A DNA stretch of 64,000 nucleotides from assembly GCF_045037415.1 (NCBI RefSeq), contig NZ_CP173438.1; one strand, written 5' to 3'. Under the pieces are notes generated by a model that searched no databases, was not told the origin of the DNA, and was given only the letters and a program-made list of their open reading frames with translations. Each line of letters starts with the position of its first letter. Within the stretch, counting starts at the first letter, position 1. Position numbers and translations under genes: made by a program. Source of the DNA: Escherichia coli. Its GTDB lineage: Bacteria > Pseudomonadota > Gammaproteobacteria > Enterobacterales > Enterobacteriaceae. Of the stretch, positions 38,856 through 45,108 are shown piece after piece.

Positions 38856-40547
38856 ATGAAAACGCTGCTGATTATTGACGCTAATCTCGGTCAGGCACGC
38901 GCCTATATGGCGAAGACCCTGCTGGGCGCGGCGGCGCGAAAAGCAAAACTGGAAATCATCGACAATCCGAACGACGCAGAAATGGCGATTGTTCTCGGTG
39001 ATTTCATCCCGAATGACAGCGCGCTGAACGGTAAAAATGTCTGGCTGGGCGATATTTCCCGGGCAGTTGCGCACCCTGAGCTGTTCCTGAGTGAAGCCAA
39101 AGGCCATGCGAAACCTTACACTGCGCCGGTCGCTGCGACAGCACCGGTTGCTGCTAGCGGTCCGAAACGCGTAGTTGCGGTGACTGCTTGCCCGACTGGT
39201 GTAGCACACACCTTTATGGCGGCTGAAGCCATTGAAACCGAAGCGAAAAAACGTGGCTGGTGGGTGAAAGTTGAAACCCGTGGTTCTGTTGGCGCGGGTA
39301 ATGCAATCACACCTGAAGAAGTCGCAGCAGCGGATCTGGTGATTGTGGCGGCAGATATCGAAGTGGATCTGGCGAAATTTGCTGGTAAACCGATGTATCG
39401 CACCTCTACCGGTCTGGCGCTGAAGAAAACTGCGCAGGAACTGGATAAAGCGGTTGCTGAAGCAACGCCGTATGAACCAGCGGGCAAAGCTCAAACAGCG
39501 ACCACTGAAGGTAAGAAAGAGAGTGCAGGCGCTTACCGTCACTTGCTGACGGGCGTCTCTTACATGCTGCCGATGGTTGTTGCAGGTGGTCTGTGTATCG
39601 CGCTTTCTTTTGCTTTTGGTATCGAAGCGTTTAAAGAGCCGGGTACGTTGGCAGCGGCGCTGATGCAGATTGGTGGTGGTTCAGCCTTTGCGCTGATGGT
39701 GCCGGTACTGGCAGGTTATATTGCCTTCTCCATTGCCGATCGTCCGGGTCTCACGCCGGGTCTGATTGGCGGTATGCTGGCGGTTAGCACCGGTTCTGGC
39801 TTCATTGGCGGTATTATTGCGGGCTTCCTGGCGGGTTACATTGCGAAGTTAATCAGTACGCAACTGAAACTGCCACAGAGTATGGAGGCACTGAAACCGA
39901 TCCTGATCATTCCGCTAATTTCCAGTCTGGTGGTCGGTCTGGCGATGATCTACCTAATCGGTAAACCGGTTGCTGGCATTCTCGATGGGTTGACTCACTG
40001 GCTGCAGACCATGGGGACTGCGAATGCGGTTCTGCTGGGGGCGATCCTCGGTGGCATGATGTGTACTGACATGGGCGGTCCGGTAAACAAAGCAGCGTAC
40101 GCATTCGGTGTGGGTCTGCTGAGTACTCAAACCTATGGCCCGATGGCGGCGATTATGGCGGCAGGTATGGTGCCACCGCTGGCAATGGGTCTGGCAACAA
40201 TGGTGGCGCGTCGTAAATTCGATAAAGCGCAGCAGGAAGGTGGCAAAGCCGCTCTGGTACTTGGTCTGTGCTTTATTTCGGAAGGTGCAATTCCGTTTGC
40301 TGCTCGTGATCCGATGCGTGTGCTACCGTGCTGTATCGTTGGTGGGGCGCTGACTGGCGCAATCTCAATGGCGATTGGTGCGAAACTGATGGCTCCGCAC
40401 GGTGGTCTGTTTGTTCTGCTGATCCCTGGCGCTATTACGCCGGTATTGGGTTACCTGGTAGCAATTATTGCCGGTACGCTGGTGGCGGGTTTGGCCTATG
40501 CCTTCCTCAAACGCCCGGAAACACAAATAGTAGAAAAAAACGCATAA
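38856..40547 (+). CDS. fruA: Fructose PTS EIIB'BC component FruA
   Basis: 563-aa ORF; duplicated IIB domains (one with CPTGVAHT) and polytopic IIC domain. Confidence 0.95.
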   Translation: MKTLLIIDANLGQARAYMAKTLLGAAARKAKLEIIDNPNDAEMAIVLGDFIPNDSALNGKNVWLGDISRAVAHPELFLSEAKGHAKPYTAPVAATAPVAASGPKRVVAVTACPTGVAHTFMAAEAIETEAKKRGWWVKVETRGSVGAGNAITPEEVAAADLVIVAADIEVDLAKFAGKPMYRTSTGLALKKTAQELDKAVAEATPYEPAGKAQTATTEGKKESAGAYRHLLTGVSYMLPMVVAGGLCIALSFAFGIEAFKEPGTLAAALMQIGGGSAFALMVPVLAGYIAFSIADRPGLTPGLIGGMLAVSTGSGFIGGIIAGFLAGYIAKLISTQLKLPQSMEALKPILIIPLISSLVVGLAMIYLIGKPVAGILDGLTHWLQTMGTANAVLLGAILGGMMCTDMGGPVNKAAYAFGVGLLSTQTYGPMAAIMAAGMVPPLAMGLATMVARRKFDKAQQEGGKAALVLGLCFISEGAIPFAARDPMRVLPCCIVGGALTGAISMAIGAKLMAPHGGLFVLLIPGAITPVLGYLVAIIAGTLVAGLAYAFLKRPETQIVEKNA

Positions 40548-40556
40548 TTTCTCTTC

Positions 40557-40760
40557 ATCATCGGGGATGAGACATCTCTGCCCCGATGATGACAAACGCA
40601 AAATTGCCTGATGCGCTATGCTTATCAGACCTACATGAACCCTGCAATATATTGAATTTTTGCGCTTTTGTAGGTCGGATAAGGCGTTTACGCCACATCC
40701 AGCATGAACAAAGCGCGCATTGTCAACAATCTGAGGGCAGAAACATCTCTGCCCTTTTTC
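40557..40760. repeat. REP/BIME-like palindromic cluster downstream of fruA
   Basis: hairpin catcggggatgagacatctctgccccgatg (40557-40588); REP-like gcctgatgcg...cttatcagacctac and tgtaggtcggataaggcgtttacgccacatcc; second hairpin gggcagaaacatctctgccc + T-run (40735-40760). Confidence 0.7.
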
Positions 40761-41002
40761 TTGCCTGCCATATTGTGTGTTACACATCACAACTTTCTCT
40801 TTTGTTGCTGCATAAATAGACAAATTTTGTGACCGCCTTCATATCTGGCCGATTTCGTTTTTTCTGATCGATTTACATTACGTTAAACATGCTTATTATG
40901 AACATGTGTTTAAATCTGAACACATGCTCTAATAGTCTTATTGACTGTAATGACTATTTTACCCAATTTCTTCGTTGGCAATTTATTGCCAGGGGGCGTG
41001 CT

Positions 41003-41944
41003 ATGCGCGAAAAGGACTACATAGTAATTATTGGCTCGGCGAATATTGATGTGGCTGGGTATTCACATCATCCATTGAATTATGCGGATTCGAATCCCGG
41101 AAAAATTAAATTTACCCCAGGTGGCGTGGGAAGGAATATCGCTCATAATCTGGCGTTACTGGGGAAAAATGCCTGGCTTTTAAGTGCAGTAGGTGGTGAT
41201 TTTTATGGGCAATCATTACTGGCGCAAACTAATCAATCCGGTGTTTATGTCGATAAATGCTTAATTGTTCCGGGTGAGAATACATCCAGCTATTTATCAC
41301 TGCTCGATAATACAGGAGAAATGCTTGTCGCGATAAATGATATGAGTATTAGTGACTGTATTTCTGCAGAATTTCTTGCCCAGCATCAGGAGTTTATTCG
41401 CGGTGCAAAGGTTATTGTCGCGGATTGCAACCTTAGTGAAGAGGCGCTGGTCTGGGTTCTGGAAAATAGCGGGGAAACGCCTGTATTTATTGATCCGGTA
41501 TCGGCATGGAAATGCGTCAAAATCCGCGATCATCTGAGCAAAATCCATACGTTAAAACCTAACCGTCTTGAAGCCGAAACGTTGAGCGGAATTGCACTTT
41601 CCGGACGTGAAGATGTCGCAAAGGTCGCCGCCTGGTTTCATCAACACGGCCTGAACCGCCTGGTGCTGAGCATGGGAGGGGATGGCGTTTACTACAGTGA
41701 TATCAACGGTGAAAGTGGGTGGTCGGCCCCTATTAAAACGAATGTCATCAATGTTACTGGGGCAGGCGACGCCATGATGGCGGGGCTGGCCTCCTGTTGG
41801 GTAGACGGTATGCCGTTTATCGATTCTGTTCGATTTGCGCAGGGATGTTCGTCAATGGCACTTGCCTGTGAATATACCAACAACCCTGAATTATCAATTG
41901 CCAATGTTACATCGTTAGTGGAGAACACAGAATGTCTGAATTAA
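41003..41944 (+). CDS. psuK: Pseudouridine kinase PsuK (YeiC), PfkB family
   Basis: MREKDYIVIIGSANIDVAGYS...GVGRNIAHNLA...; 313 aa from internal ATG. Confidence 0.92.
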   Translation: MREKDYIVIIGSANIDVAGYSHHPLNYADSNPGKIKFTPGGVGRNIAHNLALLGKNAWLLSAVGGDFYGQSLLAQTNQSGVYVDKCLIVPGENTSSYLSLLDNTGEMLVAINDMSISDCISAEFLAQHQEFIRGAKVIVADCNLSEEALVWVLENSGETPVFIDPVSAWKCVKIRDHLSKIHTLKPNRLEAETLSGIALSGREDVAKVAAWFHQHGLNRLVLSMGGDGVYYSDINGESGWSAPIKTNVINVTGAGDAMMAGLASCWVDGMPFIDSVRFAQGCSSMALACEYTNNPELSIANVTSLVENTECLN

Positions 41945-42870
41945 CTCTGTCCCCTGAATTATTACAAATATCCGCTGAAGTACAGGATGCTTTAAAAAAT
42001 AAAAAACCGGTTGTTGCGCTGGAATCGACCATAATTTCTCACGGAATGCCATTCCCACAAAATGCCCAAACCGCAATTGAAGTAGAAGAAACAATTCGTA
42101 AACAGGGCGCAGTACCAGCCACTATCGCCATTATTGGCGGTGTGATGAAAGTGGGCTTAAGTAAAGAAGAAATCGAATTGCTGGGCCGTGAAGGACATAA
42201 CGTGACGAAAGTTAGTCGTCGTGATTTACCTTTTGTCGTTGCTGCAGGGAAAAATGGCGCGACTACCGTTGCATCAACCATGATTATTGCAGCACTGGCT
42301 GGGATTAAAGTTTTTGCAACCGGAGGTATTGGTGGTGTGCATCGCGGAGCGGAACATACCTTCGATATTTCTGCCGATTTACAGGAACTGGCAAATACCA
42401 ATGTCACTGTTGTTTGTGCGGGGGCAAAATCTATTCTCGATTTAGGATTAACAACAGAATATTTAGAAACCTTCGGTGTACCGTTAATTGGTTATCAGAC
42501 AAAAGCGCTGCCTGCGTTTTTCTGCCGAACCAGCCCATTTGATGTCAGCATTCGTCTCGACAGTGCCCGCGAAATTGCTCGCGCGATGGCAGTGAAGTGG
42601 CAAACCGGTTTGAACGGCGGCCTGGTGGTAGCGAACCCGATCCCGGAACAGTTTGCGATGCCAGAAGAAACCATCAATGCAGCAATTGATCAAGCCGTTG
42701 CTGAAGCCGAAGAACAGGGTGTTATTGGGAAAGAGAGTACACCGTTCCTGCTGGCGCGTGTTGCGGAGCTAACCGGCGGTGATAGCCTGAAATCCAATAT
42801 TCAACTGGTCTTTAATAACGCCATTCTGGCGAGCGAAATTGCCAAAGAATATCAGCGTCTCGTGGGTTAA
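41932..42870 (+). CDS. psuG: Pseudouridine-5'-phosphate glycosidase PsuG (YeiN)
   Basis: 312-aa ORF MSELTLSPELLQISAEVQDALKNKKPVVALESTIISHGMP... Confidence 0.93.
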   Translation: MSELTLSPELLQISAEVQDALKNKKPVVALESTIISHGMPFPQNAQTAIEVEETIRKQGAVPATIAIIGGVMKVGLSKEEIELLGREGHNVTKVSRRDLPFVVAAGKNGATTVASTMIIAALAGIKVFATGGIGGVHRGAEHTFDISADLQELANTNVTVVCAGAKSILDLGLTTEYLETFGVPLIGYQTKALPAFFCRTSPFDVSIRLDSAREIARAMAVKWQTGLNGGLVVANPIPEQFAMPEETINAAIDQAVAEAEEQGVIGKESTPFLLARVAELTGGDSLKSNIQLVFNNAILASEIAKEYQRLVG

Positions 42871-42963
42871 TTTCTGGTGGGCAGAAAGCCGTCGCCCGTA
42901 CTCATCAAACATACCAAAACCTGGCGCTGACGCCGGGTTTACTGGCATGAAGGGAAAATCATT

Positions 42964-44214
42964 ATGGATATAATGAGAAGTGTTGTGGGGATGGTGGTAT
43001 TGCTGGCAATTGCCTTTGTGTTGTCGGTAAATAAAAAGAGCATCAGCTTGCGCACGGTTGGGGCTGCGCTGCTGCTGCAAATTGCCATTGGTGGCATCAT
43101 GCTCTATTTTCCCCCGGGAAAATGGGCAGTAGAGCAGGCGGCATTAGGCGTCCATAAAGTGATGTCCTACAGTGACGCAGGAAGTGCCTTTATTTTTGGT
43201 TCGCTGGTCGGTCCCAAAATGGATGTTCTGTTTGACGGTGCGGGCTTTATCTTCGCCTTTCGCGTACTCCCGGCGATTATTTTCGTTACCGCGCTTATCA
43301 GCTTGCTGTACTACATTGGCGTAATGGGGCTGCTGATTCGTATTCTTGGCAGTATTTTTCAGAAAGCCCTCAACATCAGCAAAATCGAATCTTTTGTCGC
43401 AGTCACCACTATCTTCCTCGGGCAAAATGAGATCCCGGCGATCGTTAAACCTTTTATTGATCGCATGAATCGCAACGAGCTATTTACGGCTATTTGTAGC
43501 GGCATGGCGTCTATTGCGGGTTCGATGATGATTGGCTATGCCGGAATGGGCGTGCCGATTGACTATTTGTTAGCCGCTTCGCTGATGGCTATTCCTGGCG
43601 GTATCCTGTTTGCACGTATTCTTAGTCCGGCGACGGAACCTTCGCAAGTTACGTTTGAAAATCTGTCGTTTAGCGAAACACCGCCAAAAAGCATTATTGA
43701 AGCTGCGGCGAACGGTGCAATGACCGGGCTGAAAATCGCCGCCGGTGTGGCGACGGTGGTAATGGCATTTGTGGCGATCATTGCGCTGATCAACGGCATT
43801 ATTGGTGGAGTTGGCGGCTGGTTTGGTTTTGCCAATGTCTCTCTGGAAAGCATTTTCGGCTATGTGCTGGCCCCGTTGGCATGGATTATGGGGGTGGACT
43901 GGAGTGATGCAAATCTTGCCGGAAGTTTGATTGGGCAGAAATTGGCGATTAATGAGTTTGTTGCTTATCTCAATTTCTCGCCCTATCTGCAAACGAGCGG
44001 CACGCTGGATGTCAAGACCATTGCCATTATCTCGTTCGCCCTCTGTGGGTTTGCTAACTTTGGTTCTATCGGTGTTGTCGTTGGAGCGTTTTCGGCTATT
44101 TCGCCAAAACGCGCGCCGGAAATCGCCCAGCTTGGTTTACGGGCGCTGGCGGCGGCGACGCTTTCCAACCTGATGAGCGCGACCATTGCCGGGTTCTTTA
44201 TTGGTTTAGCTTGA
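42964..44214 (+). CDS. psuT: Putative pseudouridine/nucleoside transporter PsuT (YeiM), CNT family
   Basis: 416-aa membrane ORF MDIMRSVVGMVVLLAIAFVLSVNKK... ending ...SATIAGFFIGLA. Confidence 0.92.
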   Translation: MDIMRSVVGMVVLLAIAFVLSVNKKSISLRTVGAALLLQIAIGGIMLYFPPGKWAVEQAALGVHKVMSYSDAGSAFIFGSLVGPKMDVLFDGAGFIFAFRVLPAIIFVTALISLLYYIGVMGLLIRILGSIFQKALNISKIESFVAVTTIFLGQNEIPAIVKPFIDRMNRNELFTAICSGMASIAGSMMIGYAGMGVPIDYLLAASLMAIPGGILFARILSPATEPSQVTFENLSFSETPPKSIIEAAANGAMTGLKIAAGVATVVMAFVAIIALINGIIGGVGGWFGFANVSLESIFGYVLAPLAWIMGVDWSDANLAGSLIGQKLAINEFVAYLNFSPYLQTSGTLDVKTIAIISFALCGFANFGSIGVVVGAFSAISPKRAPEIAQLGLRALAAATLSNLMSATIAGFFIGLA

Positions 44215-44221
44215 GTTTCAT

Positions 44222-44262
44222 TGCCGGATGTACGCCTTATTAAGCGTTGCATCCGGCAATCG
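44222..44262. repeat. REP-like palindrome after psuT
   Basis: ttgccggatgtacgccttattaagcgttgcatccggcaa imperfect palindrome typical of REP. Confidence 0.65.
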
Positions 44263-44280
44263 CACTATTGCCAATAATTT

Positions 44281-44940
44281 TTACTGCATCATCCCGGAGA
44301 ATTTATTCTCCGGGTCCATCTCCAGCGCCAGTCCTGACAACTGCTTTCTGTTTTTAATGAGATACCCTTTCTTGCTTTTAATTAATAAACCGTCATTAAT
44401 GAATTGCGCGAGAACATATAAAAGATGTCGATAAGAAACGCCTAAATACTCTGCCGCTTGCGTATGCTTTTCGTGATAAAGATCACCTTCCTGCGAGAGT
44501 AATATAAAAGCTGCCAGGCGATTCACTAACGGAAATGATTGATTCTGAGTTAAAGAAACAATATTACGATAATTTTTATGACTTAAGGTGACGCAGAGTT
44601 TTCGTAAAAATAGCGTGTCGTTTAATAACAGCGGGCGGTAATGCTTCATAGGGAGCGCAAGGCACCAACACTCTTCAATAGCCTGCACTGCACGCGGTTC
44701 ATGGTCTTTGTCGATTAACTCAATCTCGCCAATAAAACAGGGCGCGGCAAAGAAATCGATCAGCGACACGCGACCATTAGCAAGCGTGACGTAAAGCCTG
44801 GCGCGGCCTCGCGTCAGGTAAAACAGCCAGGACGGCTGTTGCCCTTCCTGCACAATGTAGTCACGCGCTAAAAAATGAAACAGCCGCGTATCGGCTGAAA
44901 CATCCGTTGAAAAGCAATCCTTAAACGCAGATTCACTCAT
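44281..44940 (-). CDS. yeiL: CRP/FNR-family transcriptional regulator YeiL
   Basis: [23 protein letters not shown]...; cNMP-binding-like fold plus C-terminal HTH; 219 aa from internal ATG. Confidence 0.9.
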
Positions 44941-45108
44941 CAATTGCTGCTTAAGATCATTATTGTGGATTTCTTTCACGATGTTTATCCGCTATGAGAT
45001 TTCTCATATTTAGCATACGTACGCTGTTGTTAAGATTCAATCATCGGCCAGGTCGAATTTTCTTTGCTGTAGAAACAATAACGCAACTGGAAACAGAGGA
45101 AATAAACA

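What the first reader, a model, noticed from the sequence alone, without database searches (positions are those of the whole stretch)
40548..41002. fruA-psuK intergenic region has two copies of an atctctgccc hairpin flanking REP elements
Immediately after fruA, catcggggatgagacatctctgccccgatg (40557-40588) and, 150 bp later, gggcagaaacatctctgccc followed by a T-run (40735-40760) share the core acatctctgccc, with two REP-like palindromes between them. This looks like a composite BIME-type element with duplicated terminal hairpins. It could act as terminator and insulator between the fru operon and the psu operon.
Basis: seen in the sequence. Interest (0 to 1): 0.25.

Follow-up and report, generated by a model that had tools for sequence, protein, structure and literature searches.

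The report
Duplicated fruA terminator hairpin around BIME-1
The two similar hairpins after fruA are two copies of that gene's own transcription terminator, split apart by a 148-bp repeat element (BIME-1), and three other E. coli loci show the same pattern, which hints at how these common repeats insert.

Summary
hp1 (40555-40592) and hp2 (40733-40756, followed by a T-run) share 12 exact bases (17 of 20). They bracket a Z1 REP, an IHF-like linker and a Y REP.

The interpretation needs correcting. The hairpins are not ends of the repeat element. Citrobacter, Enterobacter and Klebsiella with the same fruA-psuK order have one terminator, GGGCAGAGAtttTCTCTGCCC-T6, about 20 nt after the fruA stop. 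It aligns with hp2 and is 16-17/20 identical to both window copies. Escherichia carries an extra 130-190 bp that begins with hp1.

The insert here is a 148-bp multicopy BIME-1 unit (40587-40734). The same unit at ridA-mgtA, uspB-pitA and yjbR-uvrA is flanked by direct repeats of a different, locus-specific terminator hairpin. The last two sites are filled or empty among E. coli genomes. Empty alleles are about 174 bp shorter and have a single hairpin.

So hp1 and hp2 look like a 20-26 nt target duplication of the fruA terminator. hp2 keeps the T-tract and is the predicted terminator. hp1 has none and, with the BIME, forms a structured 3'UTR.

Only 22% of E. coli genomes carry this allele. K-12-type genomes have both hairpins around an unrelated unique spacer, which remains unexplained. 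I could not confirm whether the flank duplication is already published.

The parts
38856..40547 (+). fruA coding sequence (PTS fructose IIBC). Its last 27 nt already belong to the divergent allele block.
   Evidence: ORF list. RefSeq annotation of an identical region in strain SK1144. Identity to K-12 drops from 97% to 52% in the last 27 nt.
40555..40592 (+). hp1: the upstream copy of the fruA terminator hairpin. It has no T-tract. Its stem is lengthened by pairing of TCATCA with the BIME's TGATGA end.
   Evidence: Inverted repeat I1. Fold -25.1 kcal/mol, z -5.8. 16/20 identical to the Citrobacter-type terminator. It sits at the ancestral distance from the stop codon.
40564..40583 (+). Direct-repeat copy 1 (GGGATGAGACATCTCTGCCC)
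   Evidence: Family D1, 17/20 to copy 2. Flank alignment score 14, against a cross-site maximum of 8.
40587..40734 (+). BIME-1 unit (TGATGACAAACGCAAAATT ... CAATCTGA). It is a multicopy dispersed repeat.
   Evidence: 22-53 places per E. coli genome. 82% identical to the ridA-mgtA copy, with similarity ending exactly at these borders. Seven unit copies (six distinct sites, one sampled in two versions) aligned.
40606..40634 (+). Short-type (Z1) REP palindrome, GCCTGATGCGCTATGCTTATCAGACCTAC
   Evidence: Pattern match. It is 7 nt shorter than the Z2 REPs seen in K-12 BIME-2 hits. BIME-1 is defined as z1 + L + y (PMC3333891).
40645..40657 (-). IHF-consensus-like site in the L linker (ATTCAATATATTG, 12/13 to WATCAANNNNTTR)
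   Evidence: Consensus scan. [quoted passage not shown] Binding was not tested.
40669..40704 (-). Y-type REP palindrome in inverted orientation
   Evidence: Inverted repeat I4 with the Z1 REP flank. Rfam naRNA4 sub-threshold hit at 40673-40709.
40733..40762 (+). hp2: the downstream copy of the terminator hairpin plus T-tract. It is the predicted Rho-independent terminator of fruBKA. The direct-repeat copy 2 is 40735-40754.
   Evidence: Terminator scan. Fold -15.7 kcal/mol. It contains all the invariant columns of the 14-sequence alignment, and the downstream flank is homologous to that of the single Citrobacter/Enterobacter terminator.
40872..40899 (+). psuK promoter-like site (TTTACA-16-TATTAT)
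   Evidence: Promoter scan, 10/12. The K-12 equivalent, TTTACT, is where a recurrent mouse-gut adaptive SNP makes TTGACT.
40900..40929 (+). Operator-like repeat GAACATGTGTT-N8-AACACATGCTC immediately after the -10 hexamer
   Evidence: Inverted repeat I5. Conserved from Escherichia to Citrobacter and Enterobacter. The binding protein is unknown.
41003..41944 (+). psuK coding sequence (pseudouridine kinase), divergent allele
   Evidence: Translation and tblastn: 88.5% amino-acid identity to K-12 PsuK. Annotation.

Best explanation
hp1 and hp2 are two copies of the single Rho-independent terminator hairpin that ancestrally followed fruA. A roughly 150-bp BIME-1 (also called RIP or RIB: short Z1 REP, IHF-type linker, inverted Y REP, with conserved outer ends TGATGACAAACGC... 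and ...AATCTGA) lies at the 3' base of that stem. The whole hairpin (about 20 nt) is present on both sides of it, like an unusually long target-site duplication. The upstream copy (hp1) lost the T-tract. It abuts the BIME's left end, which extends its stem, so it is not expected to terminate efficiently. The downstream copy (hp2) kept the T-tract and the original downstream flank. It is the predicted functional terminator of fruBKA, now about 210 nt past the stop codon. fruBKA transcripts are therefore predicted to carry hp1 plus the BIME-1 in their 3'UTR. By analogy with studied REPs, that region would protect the upstream message from 3' exonucleases and reduce read-through into psuK, which has its own promoter further downstream. 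Shown here: the anatomy, the single-copy outgroup state, the multicopy nature and borders of the unit, and the same architecture with filled and empty alleles at other loci. Inferred: that the duplication arose at insertion, that hp2 terminates, and the 3'UTR effects.
For: (1) Outgroups. In 14 aligned fruA-psuK intergenic regions, Citrobacter and Enterobacter have one hairpin, GGGCAGAGAtttTCTCTGCCC followed by T6, about 20 nt after the stop. It aligns with hp2 and its downstream flank. Escherichia has 130-190 extra nt that start with hp1. (2) Both window copies are 16-17/20 identical to that terminator, and the E. albertii copies are 18/20. (3) Window 40587-40734 is a dispersed repeat with 22-53 places per genome. 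Its similarity to the ridA-mgtA copy stops exactly at the hairpins. (4) A metagenome scan with a 25-mer internal to the unit gave 7 distinct sites. At 4 of them the left and right flanks share a direct repeat scoring 14-19, against a cross-site maximum of 8. The right copy always starts 0-2 nt after ...AATCTGA, and the left copy ends 7-9 nt before GACAAACGC. (5) Filled and empty alleles occur within E. coli. At uspB-pitA and yjbR-uvrA the empty alleles have one hairpin directly followed by its tail. The filled alleles have hairpin, BIME-1, hairpin, tail and are 173-174 bp longer. (6) In 300 kb of K-12 sequence, two of the three best-conserved full-length copies carry the repeat (uspB-pitA and ridA-mgtA). 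Neither the third (cueO-gcd) nor any older copy or BIME-2 carries it. (7) hp2 meets the terminator consensus and is the most conserved element of the region. (8) REPs stabilise upstream genes and attenuate downstream genes (bioRxiv 10.64898/2026.03.23.713779). BIME-1 is defined in PMC3333891.
Against: K-12-type E. coli, E. whittamii and two other Escherichia species have both hairpin copies around a 116-120-nt unique spacer. That spacer has no detectable similarity to BIME-1 and no other copy in any genome. In those alleles hp2 keeps an ancestral-looking 5' flank (ATTTCCTCAA, as in C. sedlakii). The duplication can therefore exist without a recognisable BIME, and may have arisen separately or by another route. 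Three sites of the same subfamily have only the left hairpin: cueO-gcd and L102, and L103 is doubtful. The direction of change (insertion versus deletion between the repeats) is not resolved for the polymorphic sites. No transcript 3'-end data were found. fruA is absent from the supplementary files held as text for the one E. coli 3'-end-mapping study I searched. Covariation support for hp1 as an RNA structure is weak: one double change, not significant.
Confidence: 0.78

Rival explanations
1. One reading: the two hairpins are the intrinsic terminal hairpins of one composite BIME-type mobile element.
For: The hairpins directly abut the unit at both ends, and the arrangement recurs at other loci.
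Against: The hairpin sequence differs at each locus and equals the resident terminator of the empty allele or outgroup. Similarity between unit copies ends at TGATGAC... and ...AATCTGA. K-12-type alleles have the hairpins without REPs.
Confidence: 0.03
2. The terminator hairpin was duplicated first by a process unrelated to BIMEs, such as replication slippage, template switching at the palindrome, or insertion of unrelated DNA. The BIME-1 later landed in, or replaced, the spacer in the lineage of the window and E. albertii.
For: K-12-type Escherichia alleles have duplicated hairpins around a unique non-REP spacer. The hp2 5' flank in those alleles looks ancestral.
Against: At uspB-pitA and yjbR-uvrA the hairpin copy number changes together with BIME presence, and no allele with two hairpins and no BIME was seen in the sampled rows. 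Four independent loci share the same junction geometry. The window-type allele is as old as the E. coli / E. albertii split, with 91% identity in the intergenic region and 92% in fruA.
Confidence: 0.15
3. The similarity of hp1 and hp2 is convergent or due to chance. They are two independent GC-rich stem-loops in a 3'UTR.
For: An exact 12-mer repeat arises in 1.4% of shuffles. Terminator stems are compositionally similar.
Against: The match is 17/20 in register. Both copies match the single outgroup terminator. The same duplication is seen in both allele classes and at three other loci with their own hairpins.
Confidence: 0.02
4. The hp1-to-hp2 interval encodes a functional RNA of its own, such as a 3'UTR-derived sRNA ending at hp2. 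On this reading the hairpins are conserved for that reason rather than as relics.
For: The whole 229-nt 3' region folds far better than shuffles, z -6.2. hp2 would give such an RNA a terminator. Both allele classes keep hp1, about 120-140 nt, then hp2.
Against: The interval is non-homologous between allele classes. Only sub-threshold REP-related Rfam hits were found. RefSeq annotates no sRNA here in MG1655. The low fold energy is explained by REP palindromes.
Confidence: 0.05

Closest known systems
BIME-1 (also RIP / RIB: repetitive IHF-binding palindromic elements) of E. coli
   Same: It has two inverted REPs of the short (Z1) and Y types, separated by a long conserved linker with an IHF-consensus-like site. 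It is a single unit per locus, extragenic, at the 3' end of a transcription unit, with tens of copies per genome.
   Different: None of the papers I could read mentions a flanking duplication of the resident terminator hairpin (PMC3333891, PMC3184786, PMC3733652, PMC3337134).
REPIN / RAYT (TnpA-REP) system and IS200/IS605 single-strand transposition
   Same: It is a REP doublet plausibly mobilised in trans by a Y1 HUH transposase. Both unit ends carry CTGA(T), which is compatible with the C|T cleavage requirement of TnpA-REP (PMC3333891).
   Different: IS200/IS605 elements make no target duplication (PMC3333891). Here a 20-26 nt palindromic target is duplicated. No transposase dependence was tested.
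MITEs and classical IS elements with target-site duplications
   Same: A non-autonomous short repeat is flanked by direct repeats of target sequence. Filled and empty alleles differ by unit plus one repeat.
   Different: The duplication is much longer than the short target duplications described for MITEs (a 5-bp example in PMC3184786). It coincides with a whole hairpin. The unit has REPs rather than terminal inverted repeats.
REP 3'UTR stabiliser/attenuator elements (e.g. REP325 between yjdM and yjdN)
   Same: Position in a 3'UTR between co-directional genes. The expected effect is protection of the upstream mRNA and lower downstream read-through.
   Different: Here a canonical intrinsic terminator (hp2) follows the REPs, and a tail-less strong hairpin (hp1) precedes them. 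No expression data exist for this locus.

Membership tests
BIME-1 / RIP | Two REP palindromes of different types (z1 and y) in inverted orientation | tested here: met
   REPs at 40606-40634 and 40669-40704, with flanks complementary (I4). The pattern matches. The first REP is the short type, in contrast to the 36-nt Z2 REPs of K-12 BIME-2 hits.
BIME-1 / RIP | Long conserved L linker carrying an IHF site | tested here: inconclusive
   The 34-nt linker has a 12/13 match to WATCAANNNNTTR. The motif TGCAATATATTGAATTT is conserved among copies. Protein binding cannot be tested here.
BIME-1 / RIP | Dispersed, extragenic, many copies per genome, one unit per locus | tested here: met
   22-53 places per genome in 5425 of 5426 genomes. 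There is a single unit in the window.
Rho-independent terminator (hp2) | GC-rich stem, short loop, then a U-tract directly after the stem | tested here: met
   9-bp stem, 6-nt loop, TTTTTCTT tail. -15.7 kcal/mol. Stem and T-tract are invariant across 14 sequences.
Rho-independent terminator (hp2) | Transcript 3' ends map to the U-tract | not testable with these tools
   fruA is absent from the supplementary files held as text for the one 3'-end-mapping study I searched.
Rho-independent terminator (hp1) | U-tract after the stem | tested here: not met
   hp1 is followed by CAAACGCAAAATT and was not called by the terminator scan.
Insertion with target-site duplication | Direct repeats of target sequence abut the unit, and the empty site has one copy | tested here: met
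   fruA: the outgroup has a single copy. uspB-pitA and yjbR-uvrA: filled versus empty alleles. Flank statistics.
Insertion with target-site duplication | The duplication is generated by the insertion event itself | not testable with these tools
   This needs an observed transposition event. K-12-type alleles with duplicated hairpins but no BIME leave it open.
RAYT-mobilised REPIN | Dependence on TnpA-REP, with cleavage at C|T next to REPs | not tested
   There is only a sequence compatibility: CTGA(T) at both unit ends.
   The hairpins differ at every locus and match the local empty site.

The most novel reading that the evidence does not exclude
BIME-1 elements enter, or are lost from, intrinsic terminators at the 3' base of the stem, with duplication of the entire hairpin (20-26 nt). 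In a bidirectional terminator this leaves the A-tract with the left copy and the T-tract with the right copy. Each convergent transcript then reads through a tail-less hairpin and the BIME before stopping at the distal copy. This footprint would be a concrete clue to the unknown mechanism of REP/BIME dissemination. One possibility is cuts at the C|T step that a GC stem followed by a T-tract presents on both strands, giving a stagger as long as the palindrome. Another is template switching at the folded hairpin. The footprint may not have been described before.
Probability: 0.4. Interest if true: 0.7.

Novelty: new variant of a known kind. Interest (0 to 1): 0.5.

Why it matters
REP/BIME repeats make up about 1% of the E. 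coli genome, yet how they spread is still stated to be unknown (PMC3333891). A reproducible insertion footprint would turn that question into testable predictions: a whole terminator hairpin duplicated, the unit placed between stem and T-tract, and filled and empty alleles inside one species. Such predictions concern in vitro TnpA-REP cleavage at terminator bases and pangenome censuses of filled/empty pairs.

It would also explain why BIME-1 elements sit at the 3' ends of transcription units without destroying termination, because the duplicated copy restores a complete terminator.

For this locus, fruBKA mRNAs in B2-type E. coli and in K-12-type E. coli are predicted to carry entirely different 3'UTRs. 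These lie next to a psuK promoter that is a recurrent target of selection in the mouse gut (PMC7518454, PMC9509342). If the footprint turns out to be known already, the finding is an ordinary BIME-1 next to a terminator.

Tried and rejected
(1) Homology between the K-12-type spacer and the BIME-1. Local and global alignments against shuffles gave z of 2 or less. The left-end motif TGATGAgCGCAAA was not significant. nhmmer with the unit profile found nothing in the K-12 intergenic region. I rejected this as evidence, so the origin of that spacer stays unknown.

(2) Other copies of the K-12 spacer. There are none in the 83 loci then fetched (L001-L083) or the window, nor in 5426 genomes in near or distant mode.

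(3) Covariation support for hp1. Five Escherichia sequences gave one compensatory A-U to U-G change, not above the controls.

(4) Rfam gave only sub-threshold REP-derived hits.

(5) Transcript 3'-end data. fruA and psuK are absent from the supplementary files held as text for Adams et al. 2021. A text search for fruA with Term-seq found nothing useful.

(6) Checking whether the flank duplication is published. The accessible REP/BIME/REPIN papers do not mention it. Bachellier 1997 and Boccard & Prentki 1993 are not held. Further text searches were unproductive.

(7) An empty ridA-mgtA site within E. coli. None was seen, only IS-disrupted variants.

(8) REP/RIP annotation in MG1655. This copy of the record lists no repeat features.

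(9) The open reading frames overlapping the region (for example 40586-40819, 77 aa) were not pursued. RefSeq annotates no gene here, and they run through REP palindromes.

Full report
**1. What is in the sequence**

fruA ends at 40547 and psuK starts at 41003. Eight bases after the stop codon lies hp1 (40555-40592): TCATCATCGGGG / loop / CCCCGATGATGA. It is predicted at -25.1 kcal/mol (z -5.8) and has no T-run after it.

At 40733-40756 lies hp2: GAGGGCAGA-AACATC-TCTGCCCTT, followed by TTTCTT. The consensus scan calls it terminator-like, and it folds at -15.7 kcal/mol.

The two hairpins share ACATCTCTGCCC exactly, and 17 of 20 bases in register (family D1). That 12-mer occurs nowhere else in the window. 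Between them are a short REP (40606-40634), a 34-nt linker with a 12/13 match to the IHF consensus, and an inverted Y-type REP (40669-40704).

**2. The region is dimorphic in E. coli**

Only 1193 of 5426 complete genomes carry this intergenic region. Nissle 1917 is among the genomes carrying the identical BIME unit. Another 4214 genomes carry a K-12-type region.

The two types diverge abruptly 27 nt before the fruA stop. Window-to-K-12 identity falls from 97% to 52% there. They stay about 10% apart through psuK, psuG, psuT, yeiL and rihB, up to 46216, while the flanks are 96-98% identical.

The K-12 type has no REP. It nevertheless has a hairpin directly after the stop (GTTACAGGGCAG-aaatttc-CTGTCCTGTAAC, -21.3 kcal/mol) and a second one with a T-tract 116 nt later (GGGCAGA-ttattt-TCTGCCC-T6). 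The hairpins therefore do not depend on the REPs.

**3. Outgroups show the ancestral state**

A scan of one genome per species with the FruA C-terminus returned 80 loci. In most Citrobacter and Klebsiella and some Enterobacter, fruA is followed about 20 nt later by a single terminator, (G)GGGCAGAGAtttTCTCTGCCC(C) followed by T6.

Where psuK is also downstream, the intergenic region is 277-327 nt, against 410-455 nt in Escherichia. This applies to the C. amalonaticus group, C. sedlakii, E. soli, E. asburiae, the K. oxytoca group and Leclercia.

In the 14-sequence alignment the single terminator and its downstream flank align with hp2. Every invariant column of the whole alignment falls within hp2 and its T-tract. 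All Escherichia sequences carry extra DNA that starts with hp1. hp1 and hp2 of the window are 16 and 17 of 20 identical to the Citrobacter terminator. Those of E. albertii are 18 of 20. Both hairpins are thus copies of the fruA terminator.

**4. What lies between them is a mobile-type repeat with sharp borders**

Window 40587-40734 has 22-53 places in every E. coli genome. Its best other copy lies between ridA and mgtA. It aligns from TGATGACAAACGC to CAATCTGA and no further.

The architecture is a short REP, a long linker with an IHF-type motif and a Y REP, as a single unit. That matches the definition of BIME-1 (PMC3333891).

**5. The same architecture recurs, each time with the local hairpin**

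At ridA-mgtA the unit is flanked by ATCCGGGCTATCATGCCCGGATTA and ATCGGGGCTATCGTGCCCAGTTTA (20/24).

A metagenome scan with a 25-mer from inside the unit, which is blind to the flanks, gave 70 contigs from 7 distinct sites. At four sites the left and right flanks share a direct repeat:

| Site | Flank alignment score |
|---|---|
| fruA-psuK | 14 |
| ridA-mgtA | 16 |
| yjbR-uvrA | 14 |
| uspB-pitA | 19 |
| Mismatched site pairs (control) | 8 at most |

At most 4 of 2000 shuffles reached the observed score at any of these sites. The geometry is constant. The right copy begins 0-2 nt after ...AATCTGA, and the left copy ends 7-9 nt before GACAAACGC.

All seven sites have a GC-rich hairpin just left of the unit. 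Two lack a right copy: cueO-gcd, where the gcd stop codon follows at once, and L102. One site (L103) is doubtful.

One contig has hairpin-BIME-hairpin-BIME-hairpin (L129). This is what unequal exchange between such repeats would produce.

**6. Filled and empty alleles**

At uspB-pitA, about 60% of the sampled E. coli rows are 173-175 bp shorter. At yjbR-uvrA nearly all rows, including K-12, are 174 bp shorter. The alignments are unambiguous:

- uspB-pitA, empty: ...AAAAAAAGCGGGCCAGTAAACTGACCCGCTCG|TTTTGG
- uspB-pitA, filled: the same hairpin |AGACTGAT-BIME-1-AATCTGA| AGCGGGCCAG..CTGACCCGCTCG|TTTTGG
- yjbR-uvrA, empty: AAAAGGCCGCTCAGAAAGCGGCCTTAA|CGATTAC
- yjbR-uvrA, filled: AAAAGACCGTTCAGAAAGCGGCCT|GAGAATGAT-BIME-1-AATCTGA|GGCCGCTCTGAAAGCGGCCTTAA|CGATTAC

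The unit therefore sits between the stem and the tail of a resident terminator, and the stem-loop is present on both sides. In these bidirectional terminators the left copy keeps the A-tract and the right copy keeps the T-tract.

In 300 kb of MG1655, two of the three best-conserved full-length copies have the repeat (uspB-pitA and ridA-mgtA). The third (cueO-gcd) does not. The older paeA-msrA copy, the decayed copies and the BIME-2 copies also lack it.

**7. Interpretation for the window**

fruA-psuK fits the series. The Citrobacter state is the empty site. The window and E. albertii are the filled site.

The window and E. albertii differ by 8-9% in both fruA and the intergenic region, including the BIME (200/219 identical). 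The arrangement therefore predates the split of the two species.

hp1 has since drifted. The window has GGGGATGAGA where E. albertii has GGGGCAGAGA. Many metagenome contigs have GGGGCTGAGA. Its outer stem is still perfect, partly because TCATCA pairs with the BIME's TGATGA end.

hp2 has the full anatomy of an intrinsic terminator and is the most conserved element. I infer that it terminates fruBKA, and that hp1 and the BIME-1 form a structured 3'UTR (229 nt, z -6.2). Published work on REPs would then predict stabilisation of the upstream message and attenuation of read-through. None of this has been measured for this locus.

**8. What remains unexplained**

The K-12-type alleles have both hairpin copies around a unique spacer. 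These alleles include E. whittamii and two unnamed Escherichia species. The spacer shows no significant similarity to BIME-1 and has no other copy anywhere. In these alleles the 5' flank of hp2 (ATTTCCTCAA) resembles the ancestral flank seen in C. sedlakii.

There are two possibilities. A BIME-1 may have been replaced or eroded beyond recognition. Alternatively, the same terminator may have been duplicated by a separate event. This is the main reason I do not put the insertion-duplication explanation higher than about 0.6, and the overall explanation at 0.78.

**9. Mechanism**

How the duplication arises is inference. IS200/IS605-type single-strand transposition, the usual model for REP mobilisation, makes no target duplication. 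TnpA-REP needs only a C|T step in single-stranded DNA.

A GC stem followed by a T-tract presents C|T at its 3' base, and a bidirectional terminator does so on both strands. This holds for fruA, for yjbR-uvrA, and for the bottom strand at uspB-pitA, read directly. Cuts at these steps would give a stagger of one palindrome length. Template switching at a folded hairpin is an alternative. Both are speculative.

**10. Novelty**

The element is a known kind (BIME-1), and REPs next to terminators are ordinary. The hairpin-length flank duplication with filled and empty alleles is not mentioned in any paper I could read. The older primary papers were not available. From memory of its abstract, Bachellier 1997 reports 'excisions of a whole BIME-1', so partial prior knowledge is likely. 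I therefore rate this a new variant of a known kind, of moderate interest.

Noticed in passing
window 40520-46216: A block of about 5.7 kb, from the last 27 nt of fruA through psuK, psuG, psuT, yeiL and rihB, is about 10% divergent from K-12, while the flanks are 96-98% identical. PsuK is 88.5% identical to K-12 PsuK and 88.8% to a Citrobacter amalonaticus PsuK. In the part that could be compared, the window type is orthologous to E. albertii at normal species divergence. The K-12 type may therefore be the imported or replaced allele, or this may be an old trans-species polymorphism.
   Followed up: partly
window 46216-46269: The nucleoside transporter gene nupX, present in K-12 between rihB and yeiI, is almost entirely missing here. 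About 1.24 kb of K-12 sequence is replaced by about 50 bp.
   Followed up: partly
window 40872-40899 (K-12: NC_000913.2 position 2257444): The recurrent adaptive A->C substitution in the psuK/fruA intergenic region, found in mouse-gut evolution experiments, falls on the third base of the psuK -35 hexamer. It changes TTTACT to TTGACT (PMC7518454, PMC9509342). This assumes version-2 MG1655 coordinates, which fit the sequence. The window allele has TTTACA-16-TATTAT at the same place.
   Followed up: partly
window 40900-40929: Immediately after the psuK -10 hexamer there is an inverted/tandem repeat, GAACATGTGTT-N8-AACACATGCTC. In K-12 it is two tandem copies of ATGARCACATGTTTAAA. It is conserved from Escherichia to Citrobacter and Enterobacter and looks like an operator for an unidentified regulator.
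   Followed up: no
L129:2201-2560 (metagenome contig, yjbR-uvrA site): A tandem array of hairpin-BIME-1-hairpin-BIME-1-hairpin. The unit and the local terminator hairpin have been amplified together.
   Followed up: partly
L006:3750-4180 (Escherichia sp. MOD1-EC7003): This species has hp1 and the first 71 nt of the K-12-type spacer. The sequence then continues with no homology to the rest of the intergenic region, and tblastn found no psuK in the locus. hp2 and psuK appear to be deleted.
   Followed up: no
H41, NZ_CP039298.1 4647114-4648590: An IS1 element is inserted in the fruA-psuK intergenic region of a pig isolate with the K-12-type allele.
   Followed up: no
H118-H120, ridA-mgtA intergenic region: In some genomes part of the ridA-mgtA BIME region is interrupted by an annotated transposase. 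The place is about 360 bp longer, and only 68-69% of the query is covered. It may be a BIME-targeting IS.
   Followed up: no
L160:38900-39070 and L160:48390-48543 (MG1655 rraB-yjgM and lptG-yjgR): Older, decayed BIME-1-like copies sit directly next to a strong terminator hairpin on one side only. This may be the eroded form of the same arrangement.
   Followed up: no
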